Source: Malacoraja senta
Lineage: Eukaryota
Assembly: GCA_038087875.1 (NCBI GenBank)
Contig: CM075988.1
Span: forward strand, 10,108,001-10,172,000
Length of the DNA stretch: 64,000 nt
Direction of reading: 5' to 3'
Shown here: positions 2,970 through 51,917 of the stretch, piece after piece
Layout: every line of letters begins with the position of its first letter
How positions within the stretch are numbered: position 1 is the first letter of the stretch
The notes under the pieces: model-generated
The model's input: only the letters and a program-made list of their open reading frames with translations
Told to the model about the DNA's origin: nothing
Databases searched by the model: none
Made by a program: the position numbers and the translations under genes

Positions 2970-4841
2970 TCAGTGTTTTGTCCGAGCCAGGTTTAATATG
3001 GCTGTGGGGAAGTAGCTATTCCTGGAGCTGGTCGTTGCAGTCTTCAGGCTCCTGTACCTTCTACCTGAAGGTAGTAGGGAGATGAGTGTGTGGCCAGGAT
3101 GGTGTGGGTCCTTGATGATGCTGCCAGCCTTTTTGAGGCAGCGACTGTGGTAGATCCCCTCGATGGAAGGGAGGTCAGAGCCGATGATGGACTGGGCATT
3201 GATTACTACTTTTTGTAGTCTTTTCCTCTCCAGGGCGCTCAAGTTGCCGAACCAAGCCACGATGCAACCGGTCAGCATGCTCTTTACTGTGCACCTGTAG
3301 AAGTTAGAGAGAGTCCTCCTTGACAAACCGACTCTCCGTAGTCTTCTCAGGAAGTAGAGGCGCTGATGTGCTTTCTTAATAATGGCATCAGTGTTCTCGG
3401 ACCAGGAAAGATCTTCAGAGATGTGCACGCCCAGGAATTTGAAGCTCTTGACCCTTTCAACCATCGACCTGTTGATATAAACGGGACTGTGGGTCCCCAT
3501 CCTACTCCTTCCAAAGTCCACAATCAGTTCCTTGGTTTTGCTGGTGTTGAGGGCCAGGTTATTGTGCTGGCACCATAAGGACAGTTGCTCGATCTCTCTT
3601 CTATACTCTGACTCATCCCCATCAGTGATACGTCCCACAACAGTGGTGTCGTCAGCGAACTTGATGATGGAGTTTGCACTATGTCCGGCTACGCAGTCAT
3701 GAGTATAGAGTGAGTACAGCAGGGGGCTGAGCATGCAGCCTTGAGGTGCTCCCGTGCTGATTGTTATCGAGTCTGACACATTTCCACCAATACGAAAAGA
3801 CTGTGGTCTGAGAGTGAGGAAGTCGAGGATCCAATTGCAGAGGGATGCGCAGAGACCCAGTTCTGCGAGTTTGGTAACCAGCTTGGAGGGGATGATTGTA
3901 TTAAATGCCGAGCTGTAATCGATGAATAACAGCCTGACATATGAGTTTTTGTTGTCCAAGTGGTCCAGAGCGGAGTGGAGGGCCAGCGAGATCGCATCCA
4001 CCGTTGATCTGTTGTGGCGGTAAACGAACTGCAGTGGGTCCAGGTTTTTGTCGAGGTAGGAGTTGATCTGTGCCATGATCAACCTCTCAAAGCACTTCAT
4101 CACCACAGGCGTTAGTGCCACAGGTCGATAGTCATTGAGGCACGTCACCTTACTCTTCTTGGGCACTGGTATAATTGATGCCCTTTTGAAGCAGGTGGGA
4201 ACCTCAGGCCTCAGAAGTGAGAGGTTGAATATGTCCATAAAAACTCCAGCCAGTTGGTCCGCACAGGTTTTTAGAACGCGACCAGGTATACCATCAGGTC
4301 CAGGTGCTTTTCGAGGGTTCACCCCTCTGAAGGATTTCCTGACGTCGGACTCTGTGACTGAGACTGAAATACCATCACAGCGAATGGGGGCTCGGAAAGG
4401 CACATCAGTGTTCTCCCTATCAAAGCGTGCGTGAAACGCATTGAGCTCATCAGGGAGTGATGTTTCGCCGACATTCGAGCTGCCTCCTGATTTCGACTTG
4501 TAAGAGGTGATTGCATTCAGGCCCTGCCACAGCTGCCGAACATCTGTCTCTTCCTGCAGTTTGGAGCAAAAGTCCCTTTTGGCCTTTTTGATGGCCTTAC
4601 CAAGGTCGTATCTGGACTTCTTGTGGACCACTGTATCATTAGACATGAATGCCTGGTGTCTGTACTTCAGAAGAGTGCGGATCTCAAAGTTCATCCAAGG
4701 TTTCTGATTGGGAAATGCTTGGAAGGTTTTGGTGGGGATGCAGTCCTCCACACACTTCTTAATGAAGTCTGTAACGGCTGTGGCGTATTCGTTCAGGTCT
4801 GTTGCCGAGTCCTTGAACATTGCCCAGTCTACAGACACCAA
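2970..4841 (-). CDS. Rex1/Babar reverse transcriptase, 623-aa uninterrupted portion of ORF2
   Basis: Motifs KAPGPDG, NDYRPVALT, FIDYSSAFNTI, GAPQGCMLSPLLY, KFADDTT, FKFLGV, KAHQRLYFLRRL. The annotated start codon is not the true start; the ORF is the 3' part of a disrupted frame. Confidence 0.9.
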   Translation of the reverse strand: MVSVDWAMFKDSATDLNEYATAVTDFIKKCVEDCIPTKTFQAFPNQKPWMNFEIRTLLKYRHQAFMSNDTVVHKKSRYDLGKAIKKAKRDFCSKLQEETDVRQLWQGLNAITSYKSKSGGSSNVGETSLPDELNAFHARFDRENTDVPFRAPIRCDGISVSVTESDVRKSFRGVNPRKAPGPDGIPGRVLKTCADQLAGVFMDIFNLSLLRPEVPTCFKRASIIPVPKKSKVTCLNDYRPVALTPVVMKCFERLIMAQINSYLDKNLDPLQFVYRHNRSTVDAISLALHSALDHLDNKNSYVRLLFIDYSSAFNTIIPSKLVTKLAELGLCASLCNWILDFLTLRPQSFRIGGNVSDSITISTGAPQGCMLSPLLYSLYTHDCVAGHSANSIIKFADDTTVVGRITDGDESEYRREIEQLSLWCQHNNLALNTSKTKELIVDFGRSRMGTHSPVYINRSMVERVKSFKFLGVHISEDLSWSENTDAIIKKAHQRLYFLRRLRRVGLSRRTLSNFYRCTVKSMLTGCIVAWFGNLSALERKRLQKVVINAQSIIGSDLPSIEGIYHSRCLKKAGSIIKDPHHPGHTLISLLPSGRRYRSLKTATTSSRNSYFPTAILNLARTKH

Positions 4842-4925
4842 ACAGTCCTGGAGTTGTTCCTCTGCCCCCCCGCCCCCCCCCCCCCGACCAGCTCTGTACT
4901 GTCCTCACCTCTGGGGGTGCGCTCT

Positions 4926-14719: not shown

Positions 14720-15894
14720 TCCTTGCCTAGTAACTACAGACCTATTTCCAAACTGCCTTTCCTCTCAAAAGTCCTTCAAAATGTAATTCTAGACCAACTA
14801 ATGCCTTATGTACACCAAAATTCCATCTTGGAAAGTTTCCAATCAGCTTTCAGGGCCCACCACTGCACAGAATCTGCCTTGTTGAAGGTACACAACGACT
14901 TCCTTATCGCCATCGACTCCAGCGACTGTGCAATCCTGCTCCTTCTCGACCTCAGCGCAGCATTTGATACAGTGGACCATACCATCCTAATTGGTACGGG
15001 GTTGGTGTTGATGGCATTGCCATGAGCTGGTTCGTTTCCTACCTAAAAAACAGGAGTTTCTCTACCAACATAGGCAATTCTTTCTCTTCCCCAGCTAGCC
15101 TTTTCTGCGGGGTTCCACAAGGCTCCATCCTAGGCCCCATTCTCTTCTCTCTCAACATTCTCCCCCTCGGCCAAGTCATTCAAAGGCACGGCATTACTTT
15201 CCACTGCTATGCAGACGATACACAGCTCTACCTCCCCCTGAAACCCAACAACCGGTCTAATTTAAACAGCCTCATGCACTGCCTCGATGATTTAAAATGC
15301 TGGATGGCTCAGAACTTCCTCCAACATAACGAGAGCAAGTCTGAGGTCATCCTACTCGGCCCCTCCTACCCCATCAAAAGGATAACAGGCAGCCTTGGAA
15401 GCCTAACCTTCTTAGTCAAACCACTCGTCAAAAACCTTGGCATGATATTTGACTCTGCATTAAAGTTTGACAAGCAAGTCAACTCTGTGGTAAAAGCTCG
15501 TTTCTTCCAGCTTCGTACAATAGCTAAAATCAAATCATTCCTCAAAGTCGATGACCTTGAACAAATCATCCACACATTCACCTTTTCCCGCCTTGACTAC
15601 TGCAAATCCCTATACACTGGCATCAGCCAATCATCACTGTCCAGTCTGCAATTGGTCCAAAACACCGCAGCAAGACTTCTGATGGGTACCCGTAAAAGGG
15701 AACACATCACCCCGATCCTGGTCTCTCTCCACTGGCTCCCAGTACGGTATAGAGCCCCTCTGAGAAGGCGCTGTAAACAGTTTATGTATGTATTGTTAGG
15801 TCTGTCTACTGTTGTATGTATCAAATTAGTACCTGCACTGATGTGAAGCACTTTGGTCAACGTGAATTGTTTTTAAACGTGCTATACAAATACA

Positions 15895-33694: not shown

Positions 33695-35125
33695 ATAGAT
33701 AGATACATAGAAAATAGGTGCAGGAGTAGGCCATTCGGCCCTTCGAGCCTGCACCGCCATTCAATATGATCATGGCTGATCATCCAACTCAGTATCCCAT
33801 ACCTGCCTTCTCTACATACCCCCTGATCCCTTTAGCCACAAGGGCCACATCTAACTCCCTCTTAAATATAGCCAATGAACTGGCCTCAACTACCCTCTGT
33901 GGCAGAGAGTTCCAGAGATTCACCACTCTCTGTGTGAAAAAGTTTTTCCTCATCTCGGTCTTAAAGGATTTCCCCCTTATCCTTAAGCTGTGACCCCTTG
34001 TCCTGGACTTCCCCAACATCGGGAACAATCTTCCTGCATCTAGCCTGTCCAACCCCATAAGAATTTTGTACGTTTCTATAAGATCCCCTCTCAATCTCCT
34101 AAATTCTAGTGAGTATAAGCCAAGTCTATCCAGTCTTTCTTCATATGAAAGTCCTGACATTCCAGGAATCAGTCTGGTGAACCTTCTCTGCACTCCCTCT
34201 ATGGCTATAATGTCCTTCCCAGACTTGGAGACCAAAACTGTACGCAATACTCCAGGTGTGGTCTCACCAAGACCCTGTACAACTGCAGTAGAACCTCCCT
34301 GCTCCTATACTCAAATCCTCTTGCTATGAAGGACAACATACCATTCGCTTTCTTCACTGCCTGCTGCACCTGCATGCCTACTTTCAGTGACTGGTGTACC
34401 ATGACACCCAGGTCTCGCTGCATCTCCCCATTTCCTAATCGGCCACCATTTAGATAATAGTCTGCCTTCCCGTTTTTGCCACCAAAGTGGATAACCTCAC
34501 ATTTATCCACATTATACTGCATCTGCCAAATATTTGCCCACTCACCCAGCCTATCCAAGTCACCTTGCAGTCTCCTAGCATCCTCCTCACAGCTAACACT
34601 GCCCCCCAGCTTAGTGTCATCCGCAAACTTGGAGATGTTGCTTTCAATTCCCTCGTCCAGATCATTAATATAAATTGTAAATAGCTGGGGTCCCAGCACT
34701 GAGCCTTGCGGTACCCCACTAGTCACTGCCTGCCATTGTGAAAAGGACCCGTTTACTCCTACTCTTTGCTTCCTGTTTGCCAGCCAGTTCTCTATCCACA
34801 TCAATACTGAACCCCCAATACCATGTGATTTAAGTTTGTATCCTAATCTCTTATGTGGTACCTTGTCGAAAGCCTTCTGAAAGTCCAGATACAACACATC
34901 CACTGGTTCTCCCATATCCACTCTACTAGTTACATCCTCGAAAAATTCTATAAGATTCGTCAGACACGATTTACCTTTCGTAAATCCATGCTGACTTTGT
35001 CCAATGATTTCACCACTTTCCAAATGTGCTGCTATCCCATCTTTGATAACTGACTCTAGCAGTTTCCCCACTACCGATGTTAGACTAACTGGTCTGTAAT
35101 TCCCCGTTTTCTCTTTCCCTCCCTT
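33695..35125 (-). mobile_element. CR1 LINE, 5'-truncated, with RT domain and one frameshift
   Basis: ORF 34205-35071 has QHGFTKGKSCLTNL, YLDFQKAFDKVPH, GVPQGSVLGP and SKFADDTKL. It continues in another frame (33789-34247) to the normal C-terminus. 3' UTR and TTCTATG-type tail present. Confidence 0.92.
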
Positions 35126-35867
35126 TCCCTGTAATTAAAGCAGGTTGACAATCAAATTAATTGCAAGCTAGTTGTAGTTTCTGCTTAGTATTTTGAATAA
35201 AGATTTTTTTTTAATTAGCCCCAACGTTATTTTTAATCTTTTAGAAAAATGGTCATCTTAGTTTAGTTTAGAGATACAACGTGGAAACGGACCCTTCAGA
35301 CCACTGAGTGAGCGCCGACCAGCGATCCCCGCATACTAAAACCCCTGTCTCACTGTGCGAGCTGACCCACGAGGTACCCCGAGCTTAAAACAAATTTAAC
35401 TCGTGGTAATCACGTACGATTAACGTAGCGGGAACGTCGGAACTCGTAGACGCAACTTAGCGACTCTTGGCGCTAACAGTAGGTACCCGTGACACTTGTT
35501 CACTCTTGGAAAAATTCAAACATGTTTAAACTTTTCCAGGAGTAAAATGTACACTTGAGGTTAAAAATGGAAACATTTAAACACGTTGTAAGAACGTAGT
35601 GGCCCGTGCGTTTACCTTAGTGACTCGTGAGTCTACCGTGGGAACTCTTTAACTCAGCGGGCAGGCAGCATCTCTGGAGAGAAGGAATGGGTGATGGGAT
35701 GACATTTCCAAATTGGGGGGGGAGTGGGGGGTTGGAGGAGGGAGGGGGGGGTGGAGGAGAGAGGGTGGAGAGTGGAGGGAGAGGAGGGGGAGACAGATGG
35801 GGGTGTCTTCATTCACTAGCGGCGGGTGCCGGTCACTGAAACAGGCAGGTGAGATTTCACATCCACC

Positions 35868-36470
35868 TTGTGTGTGTGTGTGTGTCTCTCTCCCTCCCTG
35901 CCTCTCACACAGGCTGAGAGACTCTGCCTCTATGAGTGTACTTCTCTTTCTCCCCCTCTCCCACACACAGTAAGACCGAGGTAAGTCCATCTGTGTAAGT
36001 CCATCTGTGTCTCCCACATACACAGTAAAACTCTGCTTTGTGTGTATATACGTCTCCCCCCATTTCTCTCTCCCCCCCCACCTCTCTCTTTCTCCCCCAC
36101 ACACAATAAGACCGATGTATTCTGCTTAGTCTCTCTTCCCTCCCACACACACAGATAGACCGTGGTCCTGTGCGCTCTTTCTCTCCCCCCCACAGTCACG
36201 CCGAAGTACACCACACTGCCTCTGTGCCTCTCTCTCTCTGTCTCTCTCCCCATCTCCTTCATACACAGTCAGAGGTCCACACTGTCTCTGTGTCTCTCTC
36301 TCCCCTACACACACACACAGTTAAAGGTACTCCACGCTGCCTGTGTGTGTGTGTGTCTCTCTCTCTCACTGTCCCACCCCCCACACCCACACACAGTCAG
36401 TCAGTCAGAGGAACTCCATACTGTGTGTTTGTTTGTGTGTGTGCGCCTCTGTCTCTCCCTATCACAGTCA
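35868..36470. repeat. Compound (CT)n/(CA)n/(GT)n low-complexity array
   Basis: Recurring TCTCTCTCCC...CACACACAG units and (GT)n runs. Confidence 0.85.
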
Positions 36471-36661
36471 GAGTGAGGTACTCCCCCCGCAGTCTCTCCG
36501 CGGCCTCTCCCCGGGCAGGGTGCATCTGTCTCCCTCAGGATGCCCAGGCAGTCAGACACGACTCCGGTGGCGGGCTCCATGCACAGCTCCTGCCGGCCGG
36601 CTGGGAGCGGCGACGGAGGACAGGGGGAAGTTGGCCACCAGCGGGGCAGTCTCGGCTCTCC

Positions 36662-36713
36662 ATGCAGTCCGAGTCTCGCTGGATCCTCGTAATCCTCTGC
36701 CTCTGTCAAATGG
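36662..36713 (+). CDS. Candidate signal-peptide exon MQSESRWILVILCLCQM(G), gene unidentified
   Basis: ATG plus 52 coding nt ending at a consensus phase-1 donor G|GTGAGT. Hydrophobic core WILVILCLC after a basic residue; CpG-rich upstream sequence. Kozak context is weak and I found no downstream exon. Confidence 0.45.
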
Positions 36714-37554
36714 GTGAGTTTAACCTGACCCCCCACCCCCAACCTCCCTCCACCTCAACTCACGCCTGGGCACCAAAGCAGCTCAGGAGGCGAACCCTGA
36801 GCTCCGTCTCCCAACAATCTGATGTGCGCATCCGTCCACATTCAAAGATTTCACCTCCAGTCTCCCCGCAGTGTGTAGACCTGGCAGTAAATTCAATGAA
36901 AATATAGCAAACCTCCGCCTGCTGGTCTTCTAACTACGTGATGTGTGTTTCAAACAAATCATCAGTATAACTGCTCTGGCACGGGACGGTGCGCATTTTC
37001 CCTTTGTAGGTCACATCAATAGATGCGACGGCGCTGAATTCTATCTTTAACTCAAAGCCGCAGGATGGAGATGTTGCTTATTAAAACAGACCTTCATTGA
37101 AGGTTGGCTCAAGAGTAACTCGGGAAAGGAACTTGTTAACTCGGGAGACGAACTTGGAACATCGCAGAAATGACACTTAACGGCAAACTTGAGTCATACC
37201 CGTGGGAACTCGGTTAAACTCTTGATCATAAACTTGGAATCTCGTACGCAACCACGAGTCTTTCACTCTGGTTCACTCGTGGGTCAACTCGCACAGTGAG
37301 ACAGGGCTTTTACACTACCCTATACACACTAGAGACGATTTACAATTTTACCAAGCCAATTATCCTACAAACCTGTATGTCTTTGGAGTGTGGGAGGAAA
37401 CCAGAGGCCCCGGAGAAAACGCACGCAGGTCAAGGAGAGAAGTACAAATTCCATACAGACAGCACCCGTAGTCAGGTTCAAACCCAGGTCTCTGACGCTG
37501 TGAGACAGCAACTCTCCTGCTCTCTAATTTATCAATGGCAAAAGTAACTGCATA

Positions 37555-37832
37555 ACCGTGGCACAGCAGTAGAGTTACTGCCTTAAAGCGCTTCCTGACC
37601 ATGAGTGCTGTCTGTACAGAGTTTGTACATTCTCCCCATGACCTGTGTGGATTTTCTCCGAGGTCTTCGGTTTCCTCCCACATTCCAAAGACGTACAGGA
37701 TTGTAGGTTAATTGGCTTGGTAAATGTAAAAATTGTGTCACTGGTGTGTGTAGGTTAGAGTTAACGTGCATGGATTGCTTGATGGCATGGACCCGGTGGG
37801 CCGAAGGGCCTGTTTCCGCATTGTATCTCTAA
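37555..37832 (+). mobile_element. V-SINE-type SINE copy with partly deleted head
   Basis: GTGGCACAGCAGTAGAG head, TTTCCTCCCACA core and GGGCCGAAGGGCCTGTTTCC tail. Confidence 0.8.
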
Positions 37833-47803: not shown

Positions 47804-48631
47804 ATGTCCAACTCCTGTCGTCGACCCGACACTTTGGTCTTTGACACGGACATTGTCGACCGCTGGACTGTGTTCCAGCGCGACTTTGAACATTACACAG
47901 CCATCGCTCATCCTGTTGCCACCACTGCTGTGCAGGCTCACCTGCTGCTCAACCTCGCTGGCCCGGAGGCCATGGATCACTATGCTTCATTCGACTTCGC
48001 CCCCGGAGAAGACTGTCGGGACCCGGTATGTCTCATGGCTAAATTCACTGCCCTCTGTGATATCCCTACCAATAACATTATTGAGCGCTTTAAATTCTTC
48101 CAGAGGCGGCAGATTCCCGGCGAGCATATTGACGCTTTCATTGCCTCTTTGCGTCATATGGCTCGGCGCTGTCGCTTTGAAACAATCTCCACGGACGAAT
48201 TGATCAGGGATGTCCTGGTCAATGGTCTCCTGAACGCTAAGCTGCATGACGAGCTCCTCATGAAACCTGATTTGACACTAAGGGAGGCCATGCATTCCGC
48301 TCGTATGGCTTCTGCTGTTAGCTCCGTCTCTCAACCGGTGTCCCAGGACATTAACTTTACCGGTGCAGCTGGCCGCCGGCGGAACACTGGTCCGCCACGA
48401 CGAAACCCCGCTGCAATGCCCGCTAAGGTCACCCCACGCCGTTGCCCCAATTGTAATTTTTCTTTCCACCAGTTCAACGTTTGCCCCGCGCAGGGTAAGA
48501 CTTGTAATTCCTGTGGCAAACTGAACCACTTTTCGGCGGCTTGTCGGTCCCGTGATAAGCCGGTCCCTGCTCCAAGGAGGAATTTAAACAACCTTGCAGA
48601 CCCTGATAGGTTATCAGTACCAGTCGGATGA
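47804..48631 (+). CDS. gag: Gypsy Gag
   Basis: First in-frame ATG at 47804 (MSNSCRRPD...). Motifs ERFKFFQRRQIPGEHID and IRDVLVNGL, and a CCHC knuckle CNSCGKLNHFSAAC. Confidence 0.9.
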   Translation: MSNSCRRPDTLVFDTDIVDRWTVFQRDFEHYTAIAHPVATTAVQAHLLLNLAGPEAMDHYASFDFAPGEDCRDPVCLMAKFTALCDIPTNNIIERFKFFQRRQIPGEHIDAFIASLRHMARRCRFETISTDELIRDVLVNGLLNAKLHDELLMKPDLTLREAMHSARMASAVSSVSQPVSQDINFTGAAGRRRNTGPPRRNPAAMPAKVTPRRCPNCNFSFHQFNVCPAQGKTCNSCGKLNHFSAACRSRDKPVPAPRRNLNNLADPDRLSVPVG

Positions 48632-51600
48632 ACTCCCAGACTCTGATAGGAGCTCCTCCCTTGGTGATTCAACGGTGTTTTTGCTTTTGGGTGCACCTGC
48701 TACGATAACAGATCCCTCTGTGCATGTTACTGTGAATGGCCATTCATTCTCTGCCAAGGTCGATACTGGTGCCTTTGCAAATGTTATGTCTGTCAGCCTC
48801 TTCAAGCGGATAAGATCTGGTGAGAGAGTTACTCCCGGCGACACCCGCCTTCATGCCTATGGGGGAGGAGTTCTAGTTCCAGTGGGGAAGGTCACGCTTA
48901 TCTGCACAGTCCTTGAGACCTCTCGGCCCCTCACCTTCCACCTGCTGGATTCTGACAACGTCACCCTGTTGGGCGCCCGTGCGTGCCAGGACCTTGGCTT
49001 GGTTTCTTTCCACCGCGGAATTCACCTGGTGCAGGCCCCCATGGACCCACTGGGCGAATACCCCGACCGTTTTGATGACATTTTGGGCAAATTGCCCTGT
49101 GACTATAAAATTGTTGTCGACCCGAGTGTCGACCCGGTGGTTCGACCGGCCCACCGCGTCTCCTTTGCTATGAAGGGCCGCGTGGAATCTACTCTGCGTG
49201 ATATGGTGACCATGGGCATCCTCAAGGAGGTGAGCGCTCCCACCAGGTGGGTCTCAAACATGGTCGTCGCTGCCAAGAAGGACAAGAGCGAGATCCGGAT
49301 CTGCATTAACCCAAAGGACCTGAACCTGGCCATCAAGCGCCCGCACTACCCCATGCGGACGGTGGAGGACGTCGCTGCACAGGTCGGTCCTGCCACTGTC
49401 TTCTCTGTCTTAGACGCCAAAAGCTCATTCTGGCAGATCCCTTTAGATGAACGTTCCTCATTCCTGACCACCTTCATCACACCTTTCGGCAGGTTCCGTT
49501 TCCTCCGTATGCCGTTTGGGATCAACTCGGCTAGTGAGGTTTTCCAGCGCACCATGGAACAGCTGTTCGCTGGGTTGCCGTGCGCTATCATCGTGGATGA
49601 CATCCTGGTGTACGGGAGGGACGTCGCTGAGCATGACCTGCACCTCCGCAAAGTCCTGGACAGGGCTCGTAAAATCAATCTCAAGCTCAACCCCAAGAAG
49701 TGTCGGTTCCGGGTCCCGGAAGTCACTTACGTTGGTCACGTTTTCACGGCGGGGGGTTTAAAGCCTGACCCCCAGAAAACATCAGCAGTCACCGAGATGC
49801 CCGCTCCTACCGACGTTCCCGGCCTGCAGCGCTTCCTGGGCATGGTCAATTACCTGGGGAAGTTCATACCTGACCTCAGCGAACTGAGTGCTCCCCTGAG
49901 GGAGCTGATCAAGAAGGACTCCGCATGGGTCTTGCTCCCGCATCACCAGTCGGCGTTCGTGGCTCTGAAGTCCAAGCTCACACACACACCTACTCTCAAG
50001 TTCTTCGATCTGCACAGACCAATTGTCCTCACTTGTGATGCCTCTAAGTTCGGTCTCGGTGCCGCATGTCTGCAGCTTTATGACGGCCTGCAGCTACCTG
50101 TCTCCTACGCTTCTCGCACCATGACCCCTGCCGAGCAACGTTATGCCCAGATCGAGAAGGAGCTCCTTGCCATGGTGTTCGCCTGCTCCAAGTTTAAGGA
50201 CTACATTCTGGGCAACACCTTCACCATTGAGACTGACCACCAGCCGCTGGTCACTATTCTGAACAAGCCTATCCATGTCGCCTCTTCCCGGTTGCAGCGG
50301 ATGATGCTGAGGCTCCAGCGTTTCACGTTCCGGATTGTGTACCGCAAGGGCAAAGATATGTTTGTGGCCGACACATTGTCCCGTGCGCCGCTCCCTTCAG
50401 TTGCCCGTCACCCGTATGAATCGTCTGACCTGATGGTACTGAACGTTAACATTGTTCCATCCCAGCAGATGCAGTCCCTGGTCAAACACACTGCTGATGA
50501 TCCTGCCCTGCAACAACATGCGGACGTTATCCGCCGTGGTTGGCCTGACCGACGCTCTTCCCTGCCGGCTGGTGCCGTGCCCTACTTCCTGGTTCGTGAT
50601 GAACTGGTGCTACACGACGGCGTGGTGGTGAAGGGTCACAAGGTCGTGGTGCCGGCCGCTCTGCGGGATCACTATTTTCAATCTGCACACAACGGCCACC
50701 CCGGGGTGGAGGCCACTTTGTCCCAGGCCCAGAGCCAATTCTACTGGCCAGGTATGGCTCAGGACATCCGTGACAGGGTCTCCGCTTGCGCTGCCTGTAA
50801 CAGTCTCCTGCCTCATCAGCAGCGTCAGCCCCTCCTGCAGCAGCCGGCCCCCGAGCTACCGTGGATGTCTGTTGCCACGGACCTTTTCGAATGGCGTGGC
50901 AAGCACTTCCTGGTCCTGGTGGACTCATACTCCAGTTGGTTTGAGGTGGATCAGCTGCCTTCCATCACCTCTGCCGCCGTCATCGGGAAGCTTCGCCGCC
51001 ACTTTTGCACCTTCGGATCTCCGGTGACCCTCCAATCGGACAACGGCAGCCAGTTCTCCAGCGCCGAGTTCCGTGCCTTCGCTGCCCGTTGGAACTTTTG
51101 TCACATCACCAGCAGCCCTGAGTATCCGCAGAGCAACGGCCTTGCGGAACGCGCCGTCCGCAGTGCCAAGGAGCTGCTGGAACACTGCCGCCTTTCACAT
51201 TCCGACTTCTACCTTGCCCTCCTCAACCTCCGCAACATTTCCCGCAACCCCGCGCTCGGTTCACCTGCCCATCGCCTCATGTCCCGCACCACTAGACCAC
51301 CTCTCCCTGTCTCGCAACAGTCCCTCAAACCCTCAGTCCAGAACCCTGTCACTGTGACAGAGCGCATCATCGAGAAGAAAGCCATCCAGAAGCGCTCCTT
51401 TGACAAGTCGGCCCGGCCGCTTCCTTGCCTGTTCCCGGGCCAGGTGGTTCGGATGCAGTCCCCCTCCGGGCACTACAGGCTGGCCGTAGTGGTTGGCAAT
51501 GCCGGCTCTCCCCAGTCATACCTCGTCGACTATGAGGGCGCTTTCTACCGTCAGTCACGCCAGCACCTCCTGCTCGTCAACGAGCCTCCTCCGCCTCCCG

Positions 51601-51917
51601 CGGACCCGTTTCAGCCACCTATCCCTTCCATTCTGCCCGAGGCTCCGCCAGCCCCTGTCACTCCTCGCATATCGCGGAAACTGCCCTCCCAGCTCTCTAT
51701 GCCCCGCGCTCACAAGCCTCTTTCCCCTGCCTCGCCTGCCAGCGTGCCCGTTTCGCCTCGCTGTTCTGCTCCGTCTCCGGTTCGTTCCCCGCGCGGCTCT
51801 CCCACCTCTGTCCCTGACTCTGTCCCTTCTGCTCCTGCGGTTGAGGGGGAATGCGGGTTGCACACCCGCTCTGGCCGGTTGGTCAAGCCGCCTGTCCATT
51901 ACGGGGAGCTCGCTTAG
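48588..51917 (+). CDS. pol: Gypsy Pol (protease, RT, RNase H, integrase), +1 relative to gag
   Basis: VDTGA protease; LDAKSSFWQI, RMPFG and VDDILV in RT; CDASKFGLGA and ETDHQPL in RNase H; HNGH...CAAC and TDLF/SDNG/AERAV in integrase. No internal stops over ~1109 codons. Confidence 0.95.
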   Translation, partial: TTLQTLIGYQYQSDELPDSDRSSSLGDSTVFLLLGAPATITDPSVHVTVNGHSFSAKVDTGAFANVMSVSLFKRIRSGERVTPGDTRLHAYGGGVLVPVGKVTLICTVLETSRPLTFHLLDSDNVTLLGARACQDLGLVSFHRGIHLVQAPMDPLGEYPDRFDDILGKLPCDYKIVVDPSVDPVVRPAHRVSFAMKGRVESTLRDMVTMGILKEVSAPTRWVSNMVVAAKKDKSEIRICINPKDLNLAIKRPHYPMRTVEDVAAQVGPATVFSVLDAKSSFWQIPLDERSSFLTTFITPFGRFRFLRMPFGINSASEVFQRTMEQLFAGLPCAIIVDDILVYGRDVAEHDLHLRKVLDRARKINLKLNPKKCRFRVPEVTYVGHVFTAGGLKPDPQKTSAVTEMPAPTDVPGLQRFLGMVNYLGKFIPDLSELSAPLRELIKKDSAWVLLPHHQSAFVALKSKLTHTPTLKFFDLHRPIVLTCDASKFGLGAACLQLYDGLQLPVSYASRTMTPAEQRYAQIEKELLAMVFACSKFKDYILGNTFTIETDHQPLVTILNKPIHVASSRLQRMMLRLQRFTFRIVYRKGKDMFVADTLSRAPLPSVARHPYESSDLMVLNVNIVPSQQMQSLVKHTADDPALQQHADVIRRGWPDRRSSLPAGAVPYFLVRDELVLHDGVVVKGHKVVVPAALRDHYFQSAHNGHPGVEATLSQAQSQFYWPGMAQDIRDRVSACAACNSLLPHQQRQPLLQQPAPELPWMSVATDLFEWRGKHFLVLVDSYSSWFEVDQLPSITSAAVIGKLRRHFCTFGSPVTLQSDNGSQFSSAEFRAFAARWNFCHITSSPEYPQSNGLAERAVRSAKELLEHCRLSHSDFYLALLNLRNISRNPALGSPAHRLMSRTTRPPLPVSQQSLKPSVQNPVTVTERIIEKKAIQKRSFDKSARPLPCLFPGQVVRMQSPSGHYRLAVVVGNAGSPQSYLVDYEGAFYRQSRQHLLLVNEPPPPPADPFQPPIPSILPEAPPAPVTPRISRKLPSQLSMPRAHKPLSPASPASVPVSPRCSAPSPVRSPRGSPTSVPDSVPSAPAVEGECGLHTRSGRLVKPPVHYGELA

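What the first reader, a model, noticed from the sequence alone, without database searches (positions are those of the whole stretch)
35340..37309. Candidate Pack-type DNA transposon carrying a CpG-rich gene start with a signal-peptide exon
Seen: 34-bp TIRs bound a 1970-bp block that sits inside a SINE whose halves rejoin cleanly, so the block is younger than the SINE. Between the MITE arms lie ~1.45 kb that resemble a gene 5' region. It has CT/CA microsatellites, donor-like sites (CAG|GTGAGA at 35849, GAG|GTAAGT at 35981), acceptor-like sites (AG at 36491-92 and 36537-38), a CpG-rich stretch, and ATG...MQSESRWILVILCLCQM-G|GTGAGT, followed by intron-like DNA. The left junction runs through a shared TAACTC between the MITE arm and a Penelope repeat. 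Known: a short exon ending in a phase-1 intron is typical of secreted and Ig-superfamily genes, and TIR elements that capture host fragments (Pack-MULEs and relatives) are best described in plants. Inference: this element moved a promoter and leader exon, and could add a secretion signal to downstream exons.
Basis: partly seen in the sequence, partly recalled or inferred. Interest (0 to 1): 0.8.

Follow-up and report, generated by a model that had tools for sequence, protein, structure and literature searches.

The report
Harbinger transposon carrying PTPRZ1 leader exon
This 1,970-bp block is one of at least 387 copies of a non-autonomous Harbinger-type DNA transposon in a skate-like genome, and it carries the 5' untranslated region, start codon, signal-peptide exon and splice donor of the host PTPRZ1 gene; it is a rare vertebrate case of a cut-and-paste transposon that likely captured a gene start and spread it, and whether neighbouring genes use these copies is untested.

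Summary
Window 35340-37309 is a TIR-bounded element with a TAA/TTA target duplication, inserted in a SINE. It is not a one-off. The exon-end plus donor 34-mer occurs at 387 places in the genome, and the TIR 32-mer at 1,862.

The 3-bp TWA duplications, termini 13/14 identical to Harbinger elements with open transposase frames, and sibling subfamilies that keep a transposase remnant between the same arms place it in PIF/Harbinger.

The core 35715-36730 (1,016 bp) comes from the 5' end of PTPRZ1:
- The 17-residue leader is 15/17 identical to the N-terminus of skate PTPRZ, and the leader is conserved in sharks and mammals.
- mRNA-like contigs from two other organisms match 36470-36713 and leave the element exactly at G|GTGAGT.
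- Those contigs continue into a 30-mer that is unique in this genome. It sits behind a consensus acceptor, 58 kb upstream of PTPRZ carbonic-anhydrase exons.
- A sibling subfamily shares both flanks but lacks exactly this core.

The gene's own exon 1 is not assembled; the matching upstream flank ends at an assembly gap. Promoter activity, splicing of transposon copies and the mobilising transposase are inferred, not shown.

The parts
35257..35339 (+). 5' half of the host SINE, ending in the target TAA (35337-35339, left copy of the target-site duplication)
   Evidence: The SINE paralogs on contig C3 are continuous across this point.
35340..35650 (+). Left arm of the Harbinger-type element. It includes the left TIR (35340-35383) and three ACTCG subterminal motifs.
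   Evidence: TIR. The arm is shared at 91-96% with sibling subfamilies A, B and C, and subfamilies A and C diverge after 35650. Motifs.
35651..35714 (+). Fragment of a very abundant dispersed repeat (35651-35696) plus an 18-nt spacer. Both are shared with subfamily B.
   Evidence: There are 21 further copies in the window. Subfamily B is identical up to 35714.
35715..36477 (+). Upstream part of the PTPRZ1-derived core: a G-rich tract (35715-35860) followed by CT/CA microsatellite-like tandem units.
   Evidence: 35718-35814 matches C3:83700392-83700292 (-) at 78%, and the match ends on an exact 16-mer directly at an assembly gap, 38 kb upstream of PTPRZ1 exon 2. The segment is absent from subfamily B. 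Origin from PTPRZ1 is inferred for 35815-36469.
36478..36661 (+). CpG-rich 5' untranslated region of PTPRZ1
   Evidence: It matches mRNA-like contigs of organisms A and B (17 differences plus 3 gaps over 36470-36662 in X1; 4 differences in 92 nt in X2). Composition.
36662..36713 (+). PTPRZ1 coding exon 1: ATG, 17 codons of signal peptide (MQSESRWILVILCLCQM) and the first base of a phase-1 split codon
   Evidence: 15/17 identical to residues 1-17 of Amblyraja radiata PTPRZ, E 3e-10. Ortholog N-termini. Contigs of 4 runs leave the element exactly at 36713.
36714..36730 (+). First 17 nt of PTPRZ1 intron 1, with the donor GTGAGT. Its end is the right junction of the captured core.
   Evidence: Subfamily B matching resumes at 36731 or 36743. 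The presence of intron sequence shows the capture came from genomic DNA, not from cDNA.
36731..37102 (+). Interior segment shared with subfamily B; origin unknown
   Evidence: Contigs of organism B carry this segment behind a different upstream sequence, the subfamily-B form. It has no match to Harbinger loci or to other interiors.
37103..37309 (+). Right arm, with five ACTCG motifs and the right TIR (37266-37309)
37310..37448 (+). Right copy of the target duplication (TTA, one change from TAA) and the 3' half of the host SINE

Best explanation
Window 35340-37309 is one copy of a young, high-copy, non-autonomous PIF/Harbinger transposon whose core (35715-36730) is a 1,016-bp copy of the 5' end of the host PTPRZ1 gene, likely acquired from genomic DNA by template switching during repair of a progenitor element and then likely spread in trans by a Harbinger transposase.

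Shown:
- The TIRs, the 3-bp TWA duplication and the empty-site logic.
- At least 387 exon-bearing copies, 93-99% identical to this one.
- Sibling subfamilies with the same arms. One keeps a Harbinger transposase remnant. Another shares both flanks of the core but not the core.
- The core holds the PTPRZ1 5' UTR, the ATG, the signal-peptide exon, the donor and 17 nt of intron 1.
- The same exon and donor are spliced to PTPRZ1 exon 2 in mRNA-like contigs of two other organisms.

Inferred:
- The capture mechanism. The junctions offer only short shared letters (TT on the left, TGAC.CC on the right).
- Which transposase moves the element.
- That the stretch upstream of the 5' UTR includes the promoter.
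- Any effect on neighbouring genes.

The most likely present state of this particular copy is a neutral passenger inside a SINE in a repeat-rich region.
For: Family status:
- The interior 36480-37107 has 953 candidates; 40 of 40 scored are 96-100% identical over the full length.
- The left arm has 2,809 candidates, and 29 of 29 other loci fetched run on into the same interior.
- Homology in the 6 other full-length copies stops at the TIR ends.
- Exact counts: the exon-end plus donor 34-mer at 387 places and the TIR 32-mer at 1,862 places, with controls at 0.

Superfamily:
- Both flanks are TAA or TTA in 6 of 7 complete copies, and the two flanks are identical in 4 of 7.
- SINE paralogs show a single TAA at the empty site.
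- Six autonomous Harbinger copies end ...GTGAGACAGGCCTT + TWA, against ...GTGAGACAGGGCTT + TTA here.
- Subfamily A has the same arms and encodes about 100 residues that are 51-55% identical to the transposase C-terminus, E about 1e-33.

Parent gene:
- Contigs of 1,830, 6,277, 2,293 and 189 nt from 4 runs, 2 organisms and 3 studies match 36470/36571-36713. All four leave the element at 36713 into the same 30 letters.
- That 30-mer occurs once in this genome, with 0 mismatches, directly behind ...ctcctccctgcag.
- Carbonic-anhydrase exons lie 58-66 kb downstream on the same strand.
- Exon 3 matches PDB PTPRZ at 4e-24, against 1.5e-6 for PTPRG.
- The top database hits are skate PTPRZ.

Direction of transfer (gene to transposon):
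- The leader is conserved in skates (MQSQSRWILVILCLCQL), sawfish, sharks and mammals (LLCVCRLD...).
- Transposon copies are 93-99% alike.
- Subfamily B lacks exactly 35715-36730.

Locus without TIRs: C3:83700292-83700392 matches 35718-35814 on the gene's strand with no arm nearby, and it ends at a 200-N gap.
Against: - PTPRZ1 exon 1 itself is not assembled in this genome. Across 189.8 kb upstream of exon 2 the only core match is 97 nt of G-rich sequence at 78% identity, and no alternative contig spans the gap. The full extent and the junctions of the parental segment were therefore not seen directly.
- The RNA nature of the contigs is the tool's guess, and X3 is flagged 'probably DNA'. A processed copy would give the same join.
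- No autonomous element with these arms was found. All 150 scored hits of the subfamily-A remnant have open frames of only 113-121 aa. The nearest transposases are about 54% identical.
- No RNA data exist for the source organism, so no transposon copy is shown to be transcribed or spliced.
- Substitutions in the leader look unconstrained: 19 of 36 copies are intact, and the rest carry missense changes, stops or indels.
- The contigs carry about 48 nt just upstream of the ATG that the element lacks.
Confidence: 0.88

Rival explanations
1. The transfer ran the other way. A transposon copy inserted upstream of PTPRZ1 in skates and donated its promoter and first exon, so the leader originated in the transposon.
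For: The exon is seen only inside transposon copies in this assembly; the gene's own exon 1 is missing. The mRNA-like contigs are 95-96% identical to the transposon copy.
Against: The leader is conserved in PTPRZ of skates, sawfish, electric ray, sharks, mammals and birds, whereas transposon copies differ by only 1-7%. Subfamilies A and B have the same arms but lack the exon. The upstream flank on C3 has no arm.
Confidence: 0.03
2. This was a one-off capture at this locus: a MITE picked up a local or nearby gene start, and the exon belongs to a gene in the window.
For: The element occurs only once in the 64-kb window.
Against: There are 387 genomic places with the exon-donor 34-mer. The parent gene lies on another contig, C3 rather than C12. 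The window shows only retroelement ORFs among the 26 largest frames.
Confidence: 0.01
3. The interior is the ordinary interior of an autonomous transposon, and the 'leader' is a chance open frame.
For: Sibling subfamily A does carry transposase remnants between the same arms. Low-complexity sequence gives many spurious frames.
Against: No Pfam family hits any of 9 frames of the element. There is no nucleotide or translated match of 35715-37102 to 42 Harbinger loci. The leader matches PTPRZ 15/17 with E 3e-10, and the contigs splice exactly at its donor.
Confidence: 0.01
4. The capture is real, and the module is also functionally used. Some copies act as alternative promoters or first exons that give a signal peptide to downstream exons, or their silencing feeds back on PTPRZ1.
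For: The consensus copy keeps the ATG, an open leader and a consensus donor (TGG|GTGAGT). About half of the sampled copies (19 of 36) keep all three. The 5' UTR is CpG-rich. Bat Helitron copies carrying the NUBPL 5' end contribute splice sites to other transcripts (PMC4224331, passages read).
Against: No RNA holder is listed for the source organism. There is no sign of constraint on the leader among copies. This copy sits among repeats with no host exon detected.
Confidence: 0.2

Closest known systems
HelibatN3 Helitron carrying the NUBPL 5' end (Myotis lucifugus)
   Same: [quoted passage not shown] The gene part, the outcome and the order of copy number are all the same.
   Different: Helitrons are rolling-circle elements without TIRs or target duplications, and they capture by read-through or template switching at their 3' end. 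The element here has 34-47-nt TIRs and a 3-bp TWA duplication, so it is cut-and-paste PIF/Harbinger. The host is a cartilaginous fish.
Pack-MULE / Pack-TYPE elements of plants
   Same: Non-autonomous TIR elements whose interior is replaced by host gene fragments and which are mobilised in trans. Pack-TYPE forms were sought in the hAT, Harbinger-PIF and Mariner superfamilies in rice and maize (PMC8903248, passages read).
   Different: Those are plant elements, usually at low copy number per capture and often carrying internal exons. Here one capture of a gene 5' end reached at least 387 copies in a vertebrate.
Turmoil-1 of Caenorhabditis elegans
   Same: A Harbinger-superfamily transposon in an animal that incorporated fragments of host protein-coding genes (transduplication). 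That paper's abstract called the process 'unknown of in animals' before it (PMC2572040, abstract and passages read).
   Different: Turmoil-1 is autonomous (5,024 bp, with a transposase), carries the fragments inside 760-bp ITRs, and has one complete copy plus eight fragments. The element here is non-autonomous, carries a 5' gene end in its core and is high-copy.
Tourist-like MITEs such as mPing
   Same: Non-autonomous PIF/Harbinger derivatives with TIRs and TWA duplications, amplified to high copy number and moved by a transposase plus ORF1 protein supplied in trans (PMC2836001, abstract in the search listing only).
   Different: MITEs are short, a few hundred bp, and carry no host gene fragment. 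A related 327-332-bp MITE family does exist in this genome and is about 75% like the left arm, but the element here is 1,970 bp with a captured core.

Membership tests
PIF/Harbinger superfamily (non-autonomous member) | 3-bp target-site duplication, TAA or TTA | tested here: met
   Both flanks are TWA in 6 of 7 complete copies, and the two flanks are identical in 4 of 7. SINE paralogs show a single TAA at the empty site.
PIF/Harbinger superfamily (non-autonomous member) | Terminal inverted repeats related to those of elements encoding a DDE_Tnp_4 (PF13359) transposase | tested here: met
   13 of 14 terminal nt match six autonomous copies that have open frames of 439-478 aa. Only the termini are alike; the subterminal regions are not.
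PIF/Harbinger superfamily (non-autonomous member) | Descent from an autonomous Harbinger (transposase remnant between the same ends) | tested here: met
   Subfamily A (4 of 5 copies examined) has the same arms and encodes about 100 aa that are 51-55% identical to transposase residues 381-478, E about 1e-33.
PIF/Harbinger superfamily (non-autonomous member) | A cognate autonomous partner present in the genome | tested here: inconclusive
   All 150 scored hits of the remnant have open frames of 113-121 aa. Transposases in 42 loci are at most about 57% identical. There were 1,186 candidates and only 150 were scored.
Pack-type (transduplicating) TIR transposon | Interior homologous to a host gene that resides elsewhere without TIRs | tested here: met
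   The core holds the PTPRZ1 leader, 5' UTR and donor. The gene's exons 2 onward lie on C3. The parental exon 1 itself is in an assembly gap, and only its upstream flank, which has no arm, was seen.
Pack-type (transduplicating) TIR transposon | No transposase of its own; mobilised copies at many sites | tested here: met
   No Pfam hit in 9 frames of the element. 387 places on many contigs. Flanks differ between copies.
Pack-type (transduplicating) TIR transposon | A related element with the same ends but without the captured fragment | tested here: met
   Subfamily B (L120, L124, L125) shares 35339-35714 and 36731/36743-37312 but has another ~1.4 kb in place of 35715-36730.
MITE | Short length (a few hundred bp) and no coding or gene-derived interior | tested here: not met
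   The element is 1,970 bp with a 1,016-bp gene-derived core.
Helitron with captured gene fragment | No TIRs, no target duplication, insertion between A and T, 3' hairpin | tested here: not met
   TIRs and a 3-bp duplication are present. The defining Helitron features are recalled, not taken from a call.
Tc1/mariner MITE | TA target duplication | tested here: not met
   The duplication is 3 bp: copies read TAA or TTA before AACCCC and after GGGCTT. The TA rule is recalled.
PTPRZ1 (receptor-type tyrosine-protein phosphatase zeta) exon 1 | Encodes the N-terminal signal peptide and splices in phase 1 to the exon encoding ...GFYRQ...WSYAG | tested here: met
   Signal-peptide function itself was not predicted with a dedicated tool.

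The most novel reading that the evidence does not exclude
A recently active vertebrate Pack-type Harbinger family has scattered several hundred ready-made modules, each a CpG-rich 5' UTR plus ATG plus signal peptide plus consensus donor from PTPRZ1, through a skate genome. Some copies act as alternative first exons that put a secretion signal on downstream exons, or silencing of the copies cross-talks with the PTPRZ1 promoter.
Probability: 0.2. Interest if true: 0.8.

Novelty: new member of a known kind. Interest (0 to 1): 0.62.

Why it matters
Capture and amplification of host gene fragments by cut-and-paste transposons is well documented in plants. In the papers I searched it is scarcely documented in vertebrates, where the reference case is a rolling-circle Helitron in bats.

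This case is cleanly delimited. The parent gene is named, both junctions are placed to the base, and a sibling element lacks the insert. At least 387 copies carry a start codon, a signal peptide and a strong splice donor.

That makes two things testable in a cartilaginous fish. One is exon shuffling of secretion signals by transposons. The other is conflict between transposon silencing and the promoter of a neural gene.

It also explains a practical problem: the real PTPRZ1 promoter and exon 1 fall in an assembly gap, possibly because the region is repeated hundreds of times.

My searches found no report of this element. They cover open-access papers only.

Tried and rejected
- RNA evidence from the source organism: no RNA holder was listed. 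The eleven runs marked 'RNA?' hold only 5-8% of the sampled words and come from other organisms.
- Parental exon 1: BLAST of the element against 189.8 kb upstream of exon 2 found no match to 36478-36730. CpG-rich spots at C3:83690750-83692250 read as other repeats. A search with the unique upstream flank found no second contig.
- Downstream exons: a Pfam scan of 107 frames in the 20 kb after exon 2 found nothing. They were then found with PF00194.
- Arms near transposase genes: none within ±1.5 kb of 30 DDE loci, and none in 12 stretches of 10 kb, apart from an unrelated neighbouring MITE.
- The inverted end of the autonomous family was not pinned down. One side carries a 288-bp tandem array with TIR-like starts in direct orientation.
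- Subfamily B's 1.4-kb core matches only 125 nt of a Harbinger locus at 75% and has no Pfam hit. Its origin was left open.
- 36731-37102 has no match to Harbinger loci or to the other interiors.
- Host gene context of the window: only retroelement domains among the 26 largest frames.
- The search of earlier findings by place and by sequence returned nothing.
- Candidate counts of the first look (514, 872, 953, 2,809) depend on the query and were not used as copy numbers.
Full report
**What is at the coordinates.**
AACCCCTGTCTCAC... starts at 35340 and ...GTGAGACAGGGCTT ends at 37309.
- The inverted repeat is 47 nt at 87% by the repeat finder and 37 nt at 94.6% by BLAST.
- The flanks are TAA (35337-35339) and TTA (37310-37312).
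- In 4 of 6 uninterrupted paralogs of the surrounding SINE on another contig, the two halves overlap on a single ...cacTAAcac....
- The element therefore inserted into a TAA of an older SINE and duplicated it. One base has changed since.

**It is a family, not a single event.**
- The interior 36480-37107 gives 953 first-look candidates in the window's own 1.94-Gb genome. All 40 scored are 96-100% identical over the full 628 bp.
- The left arm gives 2,809 candidates, and all 40 scored are 96-100% identical.
- In 29 of 29 further loci fetched with the arm, the match runs on into the same interior, at least to 36275.
- In the 11 further loci fetched with the interior, the 6 full-length copies lose homology within a few bases of 35337 and 37313.
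- Exact pattern counts with up to 2 mismatches: the last 27 nt of the exon plus GTGAGT occur at 387 places (198 forward, 189 reverse). The TIR 32-mer occurs at 1,862 places. The reversed-pattern controls give 0.
- Over 36560-36800, 35 of the 36 sampled copies that hold the exon region are 93-99% identical to the window copy; the 36th, L015, is a partial copy at 76%. The family is therefore young.

**Superfamily.**
- Of 7 copies with both ends in hand, 6 have TAA or TTA on both sides, and in 4 the two sides are identical. One (L009) is unclear.
- The genome holds many Harbinger transposase genes. PF13359 gives 534 candidates, 150 scored, with open frames up to 542 aa.
- Six copies of the main autonomous family end ...CAGACTCGTGAGACAGGCCTT followed by TTA or TAA. 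That is 13 of 14 terminal bases in common with the right end here. The subterminal regions are unrelated.
- Sampling 16 TIR sites that had no perfect exon match nearby revealed sibling subfamilies with the same arms:
  - Subfamily A (5 loci) has arms 35337-35650 and 37103-37312 around another ~1.28 kb. In 4 of the 5 this encodes about 100 residues 51-55% identical to residues 381-478 of the Harbinger transposase frame, E about 1e-33.
  - Subfamily C (3 loci) is a mosaic that retains 35638-35962.
  - Three loci are the exon-bearing form.
  - Two loci show only a left arm.
- The arms are therefore the ends of a genuine Harbinger lineage.
- Its own autonomous copy was not found. All 150 scored hits of the remnant have open frames of 113-121 aa, and the nearest transposases are about 54% identical. 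Mobilisation in trans is an inference.

**The core is the 5' end of PTPRZ1.**
- Laying Logan contigs of four small runs on 36470-37110 gave contigs of 1,830, 6,277, 2,293 and 189 nt. The runs come from two coded organisms and three studies. Their RNA status is the tool's guess.
- The contigs match 36470 or 36571 to 36662, and 36660 to 36713 with 2-3 differences in 54. They carry about 48 extra nt just before the ATG.
All four continue with the same 30 letters.
- That 30-mer occurs once in the window's own genome with no mismatch, at C3:83662199-83662228 on the minus strand. It sits directly behind ...ctctcctccctgcag and is followed 34 nt later by a GTAAGC donor.
- Read in the phase set by the leader, it encodes DMIHGFYRQDNNIFDNTDWSYA.
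- Carbonic-anhydrase-domain exons lie 58-66 kb further on, on the same strand.
- The first of these exons matches the solved CA-like domain of receptor-type tyrosine-protein phosphatase zeta at E 4e-24. PTPRG scores 1.5e-6.
- Its best database relatives are skate PTPRZ at 93%.
- The N-termini of those proteins settle the matter:

| Source | N-terminal sequence |
|---|---|
| Amblyraja radiata | MQSQSRWILVILCLCQLDMIHGFYRQDNN |
| Rhinoraja longicauda | MQSDSLWILFILCLCQMDMMHGFYRQENN |
| Pristis | MQPDSRWVLALLCICQVGMIHGFYRQQNN |
| Sharks | MLPESFWIPAILCICQVDGTYGFYRQ |
| Bats | [29 protein letters not shown] |
| This element | MQSESRWILVILCLCQM |

- BLASTP of the 17 residues against the Amblyraja protein gives 15/17, E 3e-10, at residues 1-17.
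- The exon is old and the copies are young, so the gene gave the exon to the transposon.

**Limits of the captured piece.**
- Subfamily B (L120, L124, L125) is identical to the element through ...gatgacatttccaaatt (35714) and again from 36731 or 36743 to the right end. It has an extra ~146 bp at 36827/36829. In between it carries an unrelated ~1.4 kb.
- The contigs of organism B show this same form: 165 letters between 36827 and 36829, and the same upstream letters as subfamily B.
- The PTPRZ1-derived core is thus 35715-36730, 1,016 bp. It comprises:
  - a G-rich tract;
  - microsatellite-like tandem units;
  - a 184-nt CpG-rich 5' UTR (G+C 0.67, CpG o/e 0.64 over 36478-36713, which also includes the leader exon);
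  - the 52-nt coding part of exon 1;
  - 17 nt of intron 1.
- The intron bases show that the source was genomic DNA, not cDNA.
- The junctions share only a few letters (TT on the left, TGAC.CC on the right). This fits template switching during repair but does not prove it.

**The parental locus.**
- In 189.8 kb upstream of exon 2 nothing matches 36478-36730.
- The only core match is 35718-35814 against C3:83700392-83700292, on the gene's strand, at 78%. It ends in an exact gggggtgtcttcattc directly at a 200-N gap (83700092-83700291), 38 kb upstream of exon 2.
- There is no arm and no abundant-repeat fragment beside it.
- No other contig carries the unique upstream flank.
- I read this as the TIR-less parental locus, with exon 1 lost in the gap. 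That is the weakest link of the argument.

**State of the copies, and what is not shown.**
- Of 40 other copies, 36 hold the exon region.
- 19 of the 36 encode the identical leader with a GT donor. The rest carry missense changes, two stop codons, a lost ATG or small indels, and synonymous and non-synonymous changes are mixed. There is no sign of constraint.
- The mRNA-like contig of organism A extends at least 49-57 nt upstream of 36470/36478. A separate 365-nt contig of similar depth covers 35770-36045. Much of the core may therefore be a long 5' UTR, and whether a promoter came along is open.
- No frame of the element hits Pfam.
- The window around it shows only LINE and LTR-retroelement domains among its 26 largest frames.
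- No RNA run of the source organism was listed.

**Comparison with what is in print.**
- The closest vertebrate parallel is HelibatN3. It amplified the promoter, 5' UTR, first exon and part of the first intron of NUBPL to about a thousand copies in Myotis, and it contributes splice sites to other transcripts (PMC4224331, passages read). That is a Helitron, not a TIR element.
- Transduplication by a Harbinger element in an animal is reported for Turmoil-1 of C. elegans, which is autonomous and low-copy (PMC2572040, abstract and passages).
- Pack-TYPE elements across TIR superfamilies are described in plants (PMC8903248, passages).
- Searches for Harbinger + transduplication, gene capture + DNA transposon + skate, transduplication + vertebrates, and Harbinger + skate + MITE listed no report of this element. 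These searches cover open-access papers only.

**Verdict.** This is a new, well-delimited member of the Pack-type or transduplicating kind, found in an unusual host and at high copy number.

Noticed in passing
G000 C3:83700092-83700291 (L091/L107): The promoter and exon-1 region of PTPRZ1 falls in a 200-N assembly gap. The sequence on the far side starts in another dispersed repeat. The several hundred transposon copies of this region may be why it did not assemble.
   Followed up: partly
L115, L117, L123, L127, L129 (G000 C1): Subfamily A has the same arms as the finding, is about 1.8 kb long, and has 1,186 first-look candidates. It keeps a 113-121-aa open frame from the C-terminus of a Harbinger transposase, at 97-100% identity in 150 of 150 scored copies.
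   Followed up: partly
L120, L124, L125 (G000 C1): Subfamily B carries an unrelated ~1.4-kb core of unknown origin where the finding has the PTPRZ1 piece. It could be another captured sequence. The only match is 125 nt at 75% to a Harbinger locus.
   Followed up: partly
L079:8641-8967; C3 at about 83652651, 83736630, 83767661, 83818608 and 83830509: A 327-332-bp MITE family with 44-53-nt TIRs. Its first ~155 bp are about 75% identical to the left arm. Five copies lie inside or upstream of PTPRZ1.
   Followed up: partly
L082:2706-3570 and L083:6415, L084:9095: The other side of the autonomous Harbinger family carries a 288-bp tandem array. Each unit starts with the TIR-like AAGGCCTGTCTCACGAGTCTG in direct orientation, not inverted, relative to the defined end.
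   Followed up: no
window 48588-51914 (+): A 1,109-aa open frame with protease, reverse transcriptase, RNase H and integrase domains, of the LTR-retroelement pol type. It was observed only.
   Followed up: no
window 2973-4904 (-), 14968-15843 (+), 34208-35134 (-): LINE-type reverse transcriptase frames. The first also matches ALKBH8_N (PF09004, E 1.6e-11). The third lies about 120 bp upstream of the host SINE.
   Followed up: no
window 37332-37441 and 37630-37739: The 3' half of the host SINE forms a 110-nt, 83% inverted repeat with a second SINE copy 188 nt downstream.
   Followed up: no
window 35340-35650 and 37103-37309: Six of the 22 AACTCG/CGAGTT sites in the 64-kb window lie in the 518 bp of the two arms. 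All six are on the + strand in both arms. They are possible binding sites for the transposase or the ORF1 protein.
   Followed up: partly
window 36660-36662: The mRNA-like contigs of two other organisms carry about 48 nt just upstream of the ATG that the element lacks. This is an indel in the 5' UTR of unknown polarity.
   Followed up: no
L118 (G000 C1:30944110-30949109): A left arm followed by frames with reverse transcriptase and tyrosine-recombinase (Phage_integrase) matches. This suggests a retroelement of the DIRS type nested in, or next to, a truncated element.
   Followed up: no
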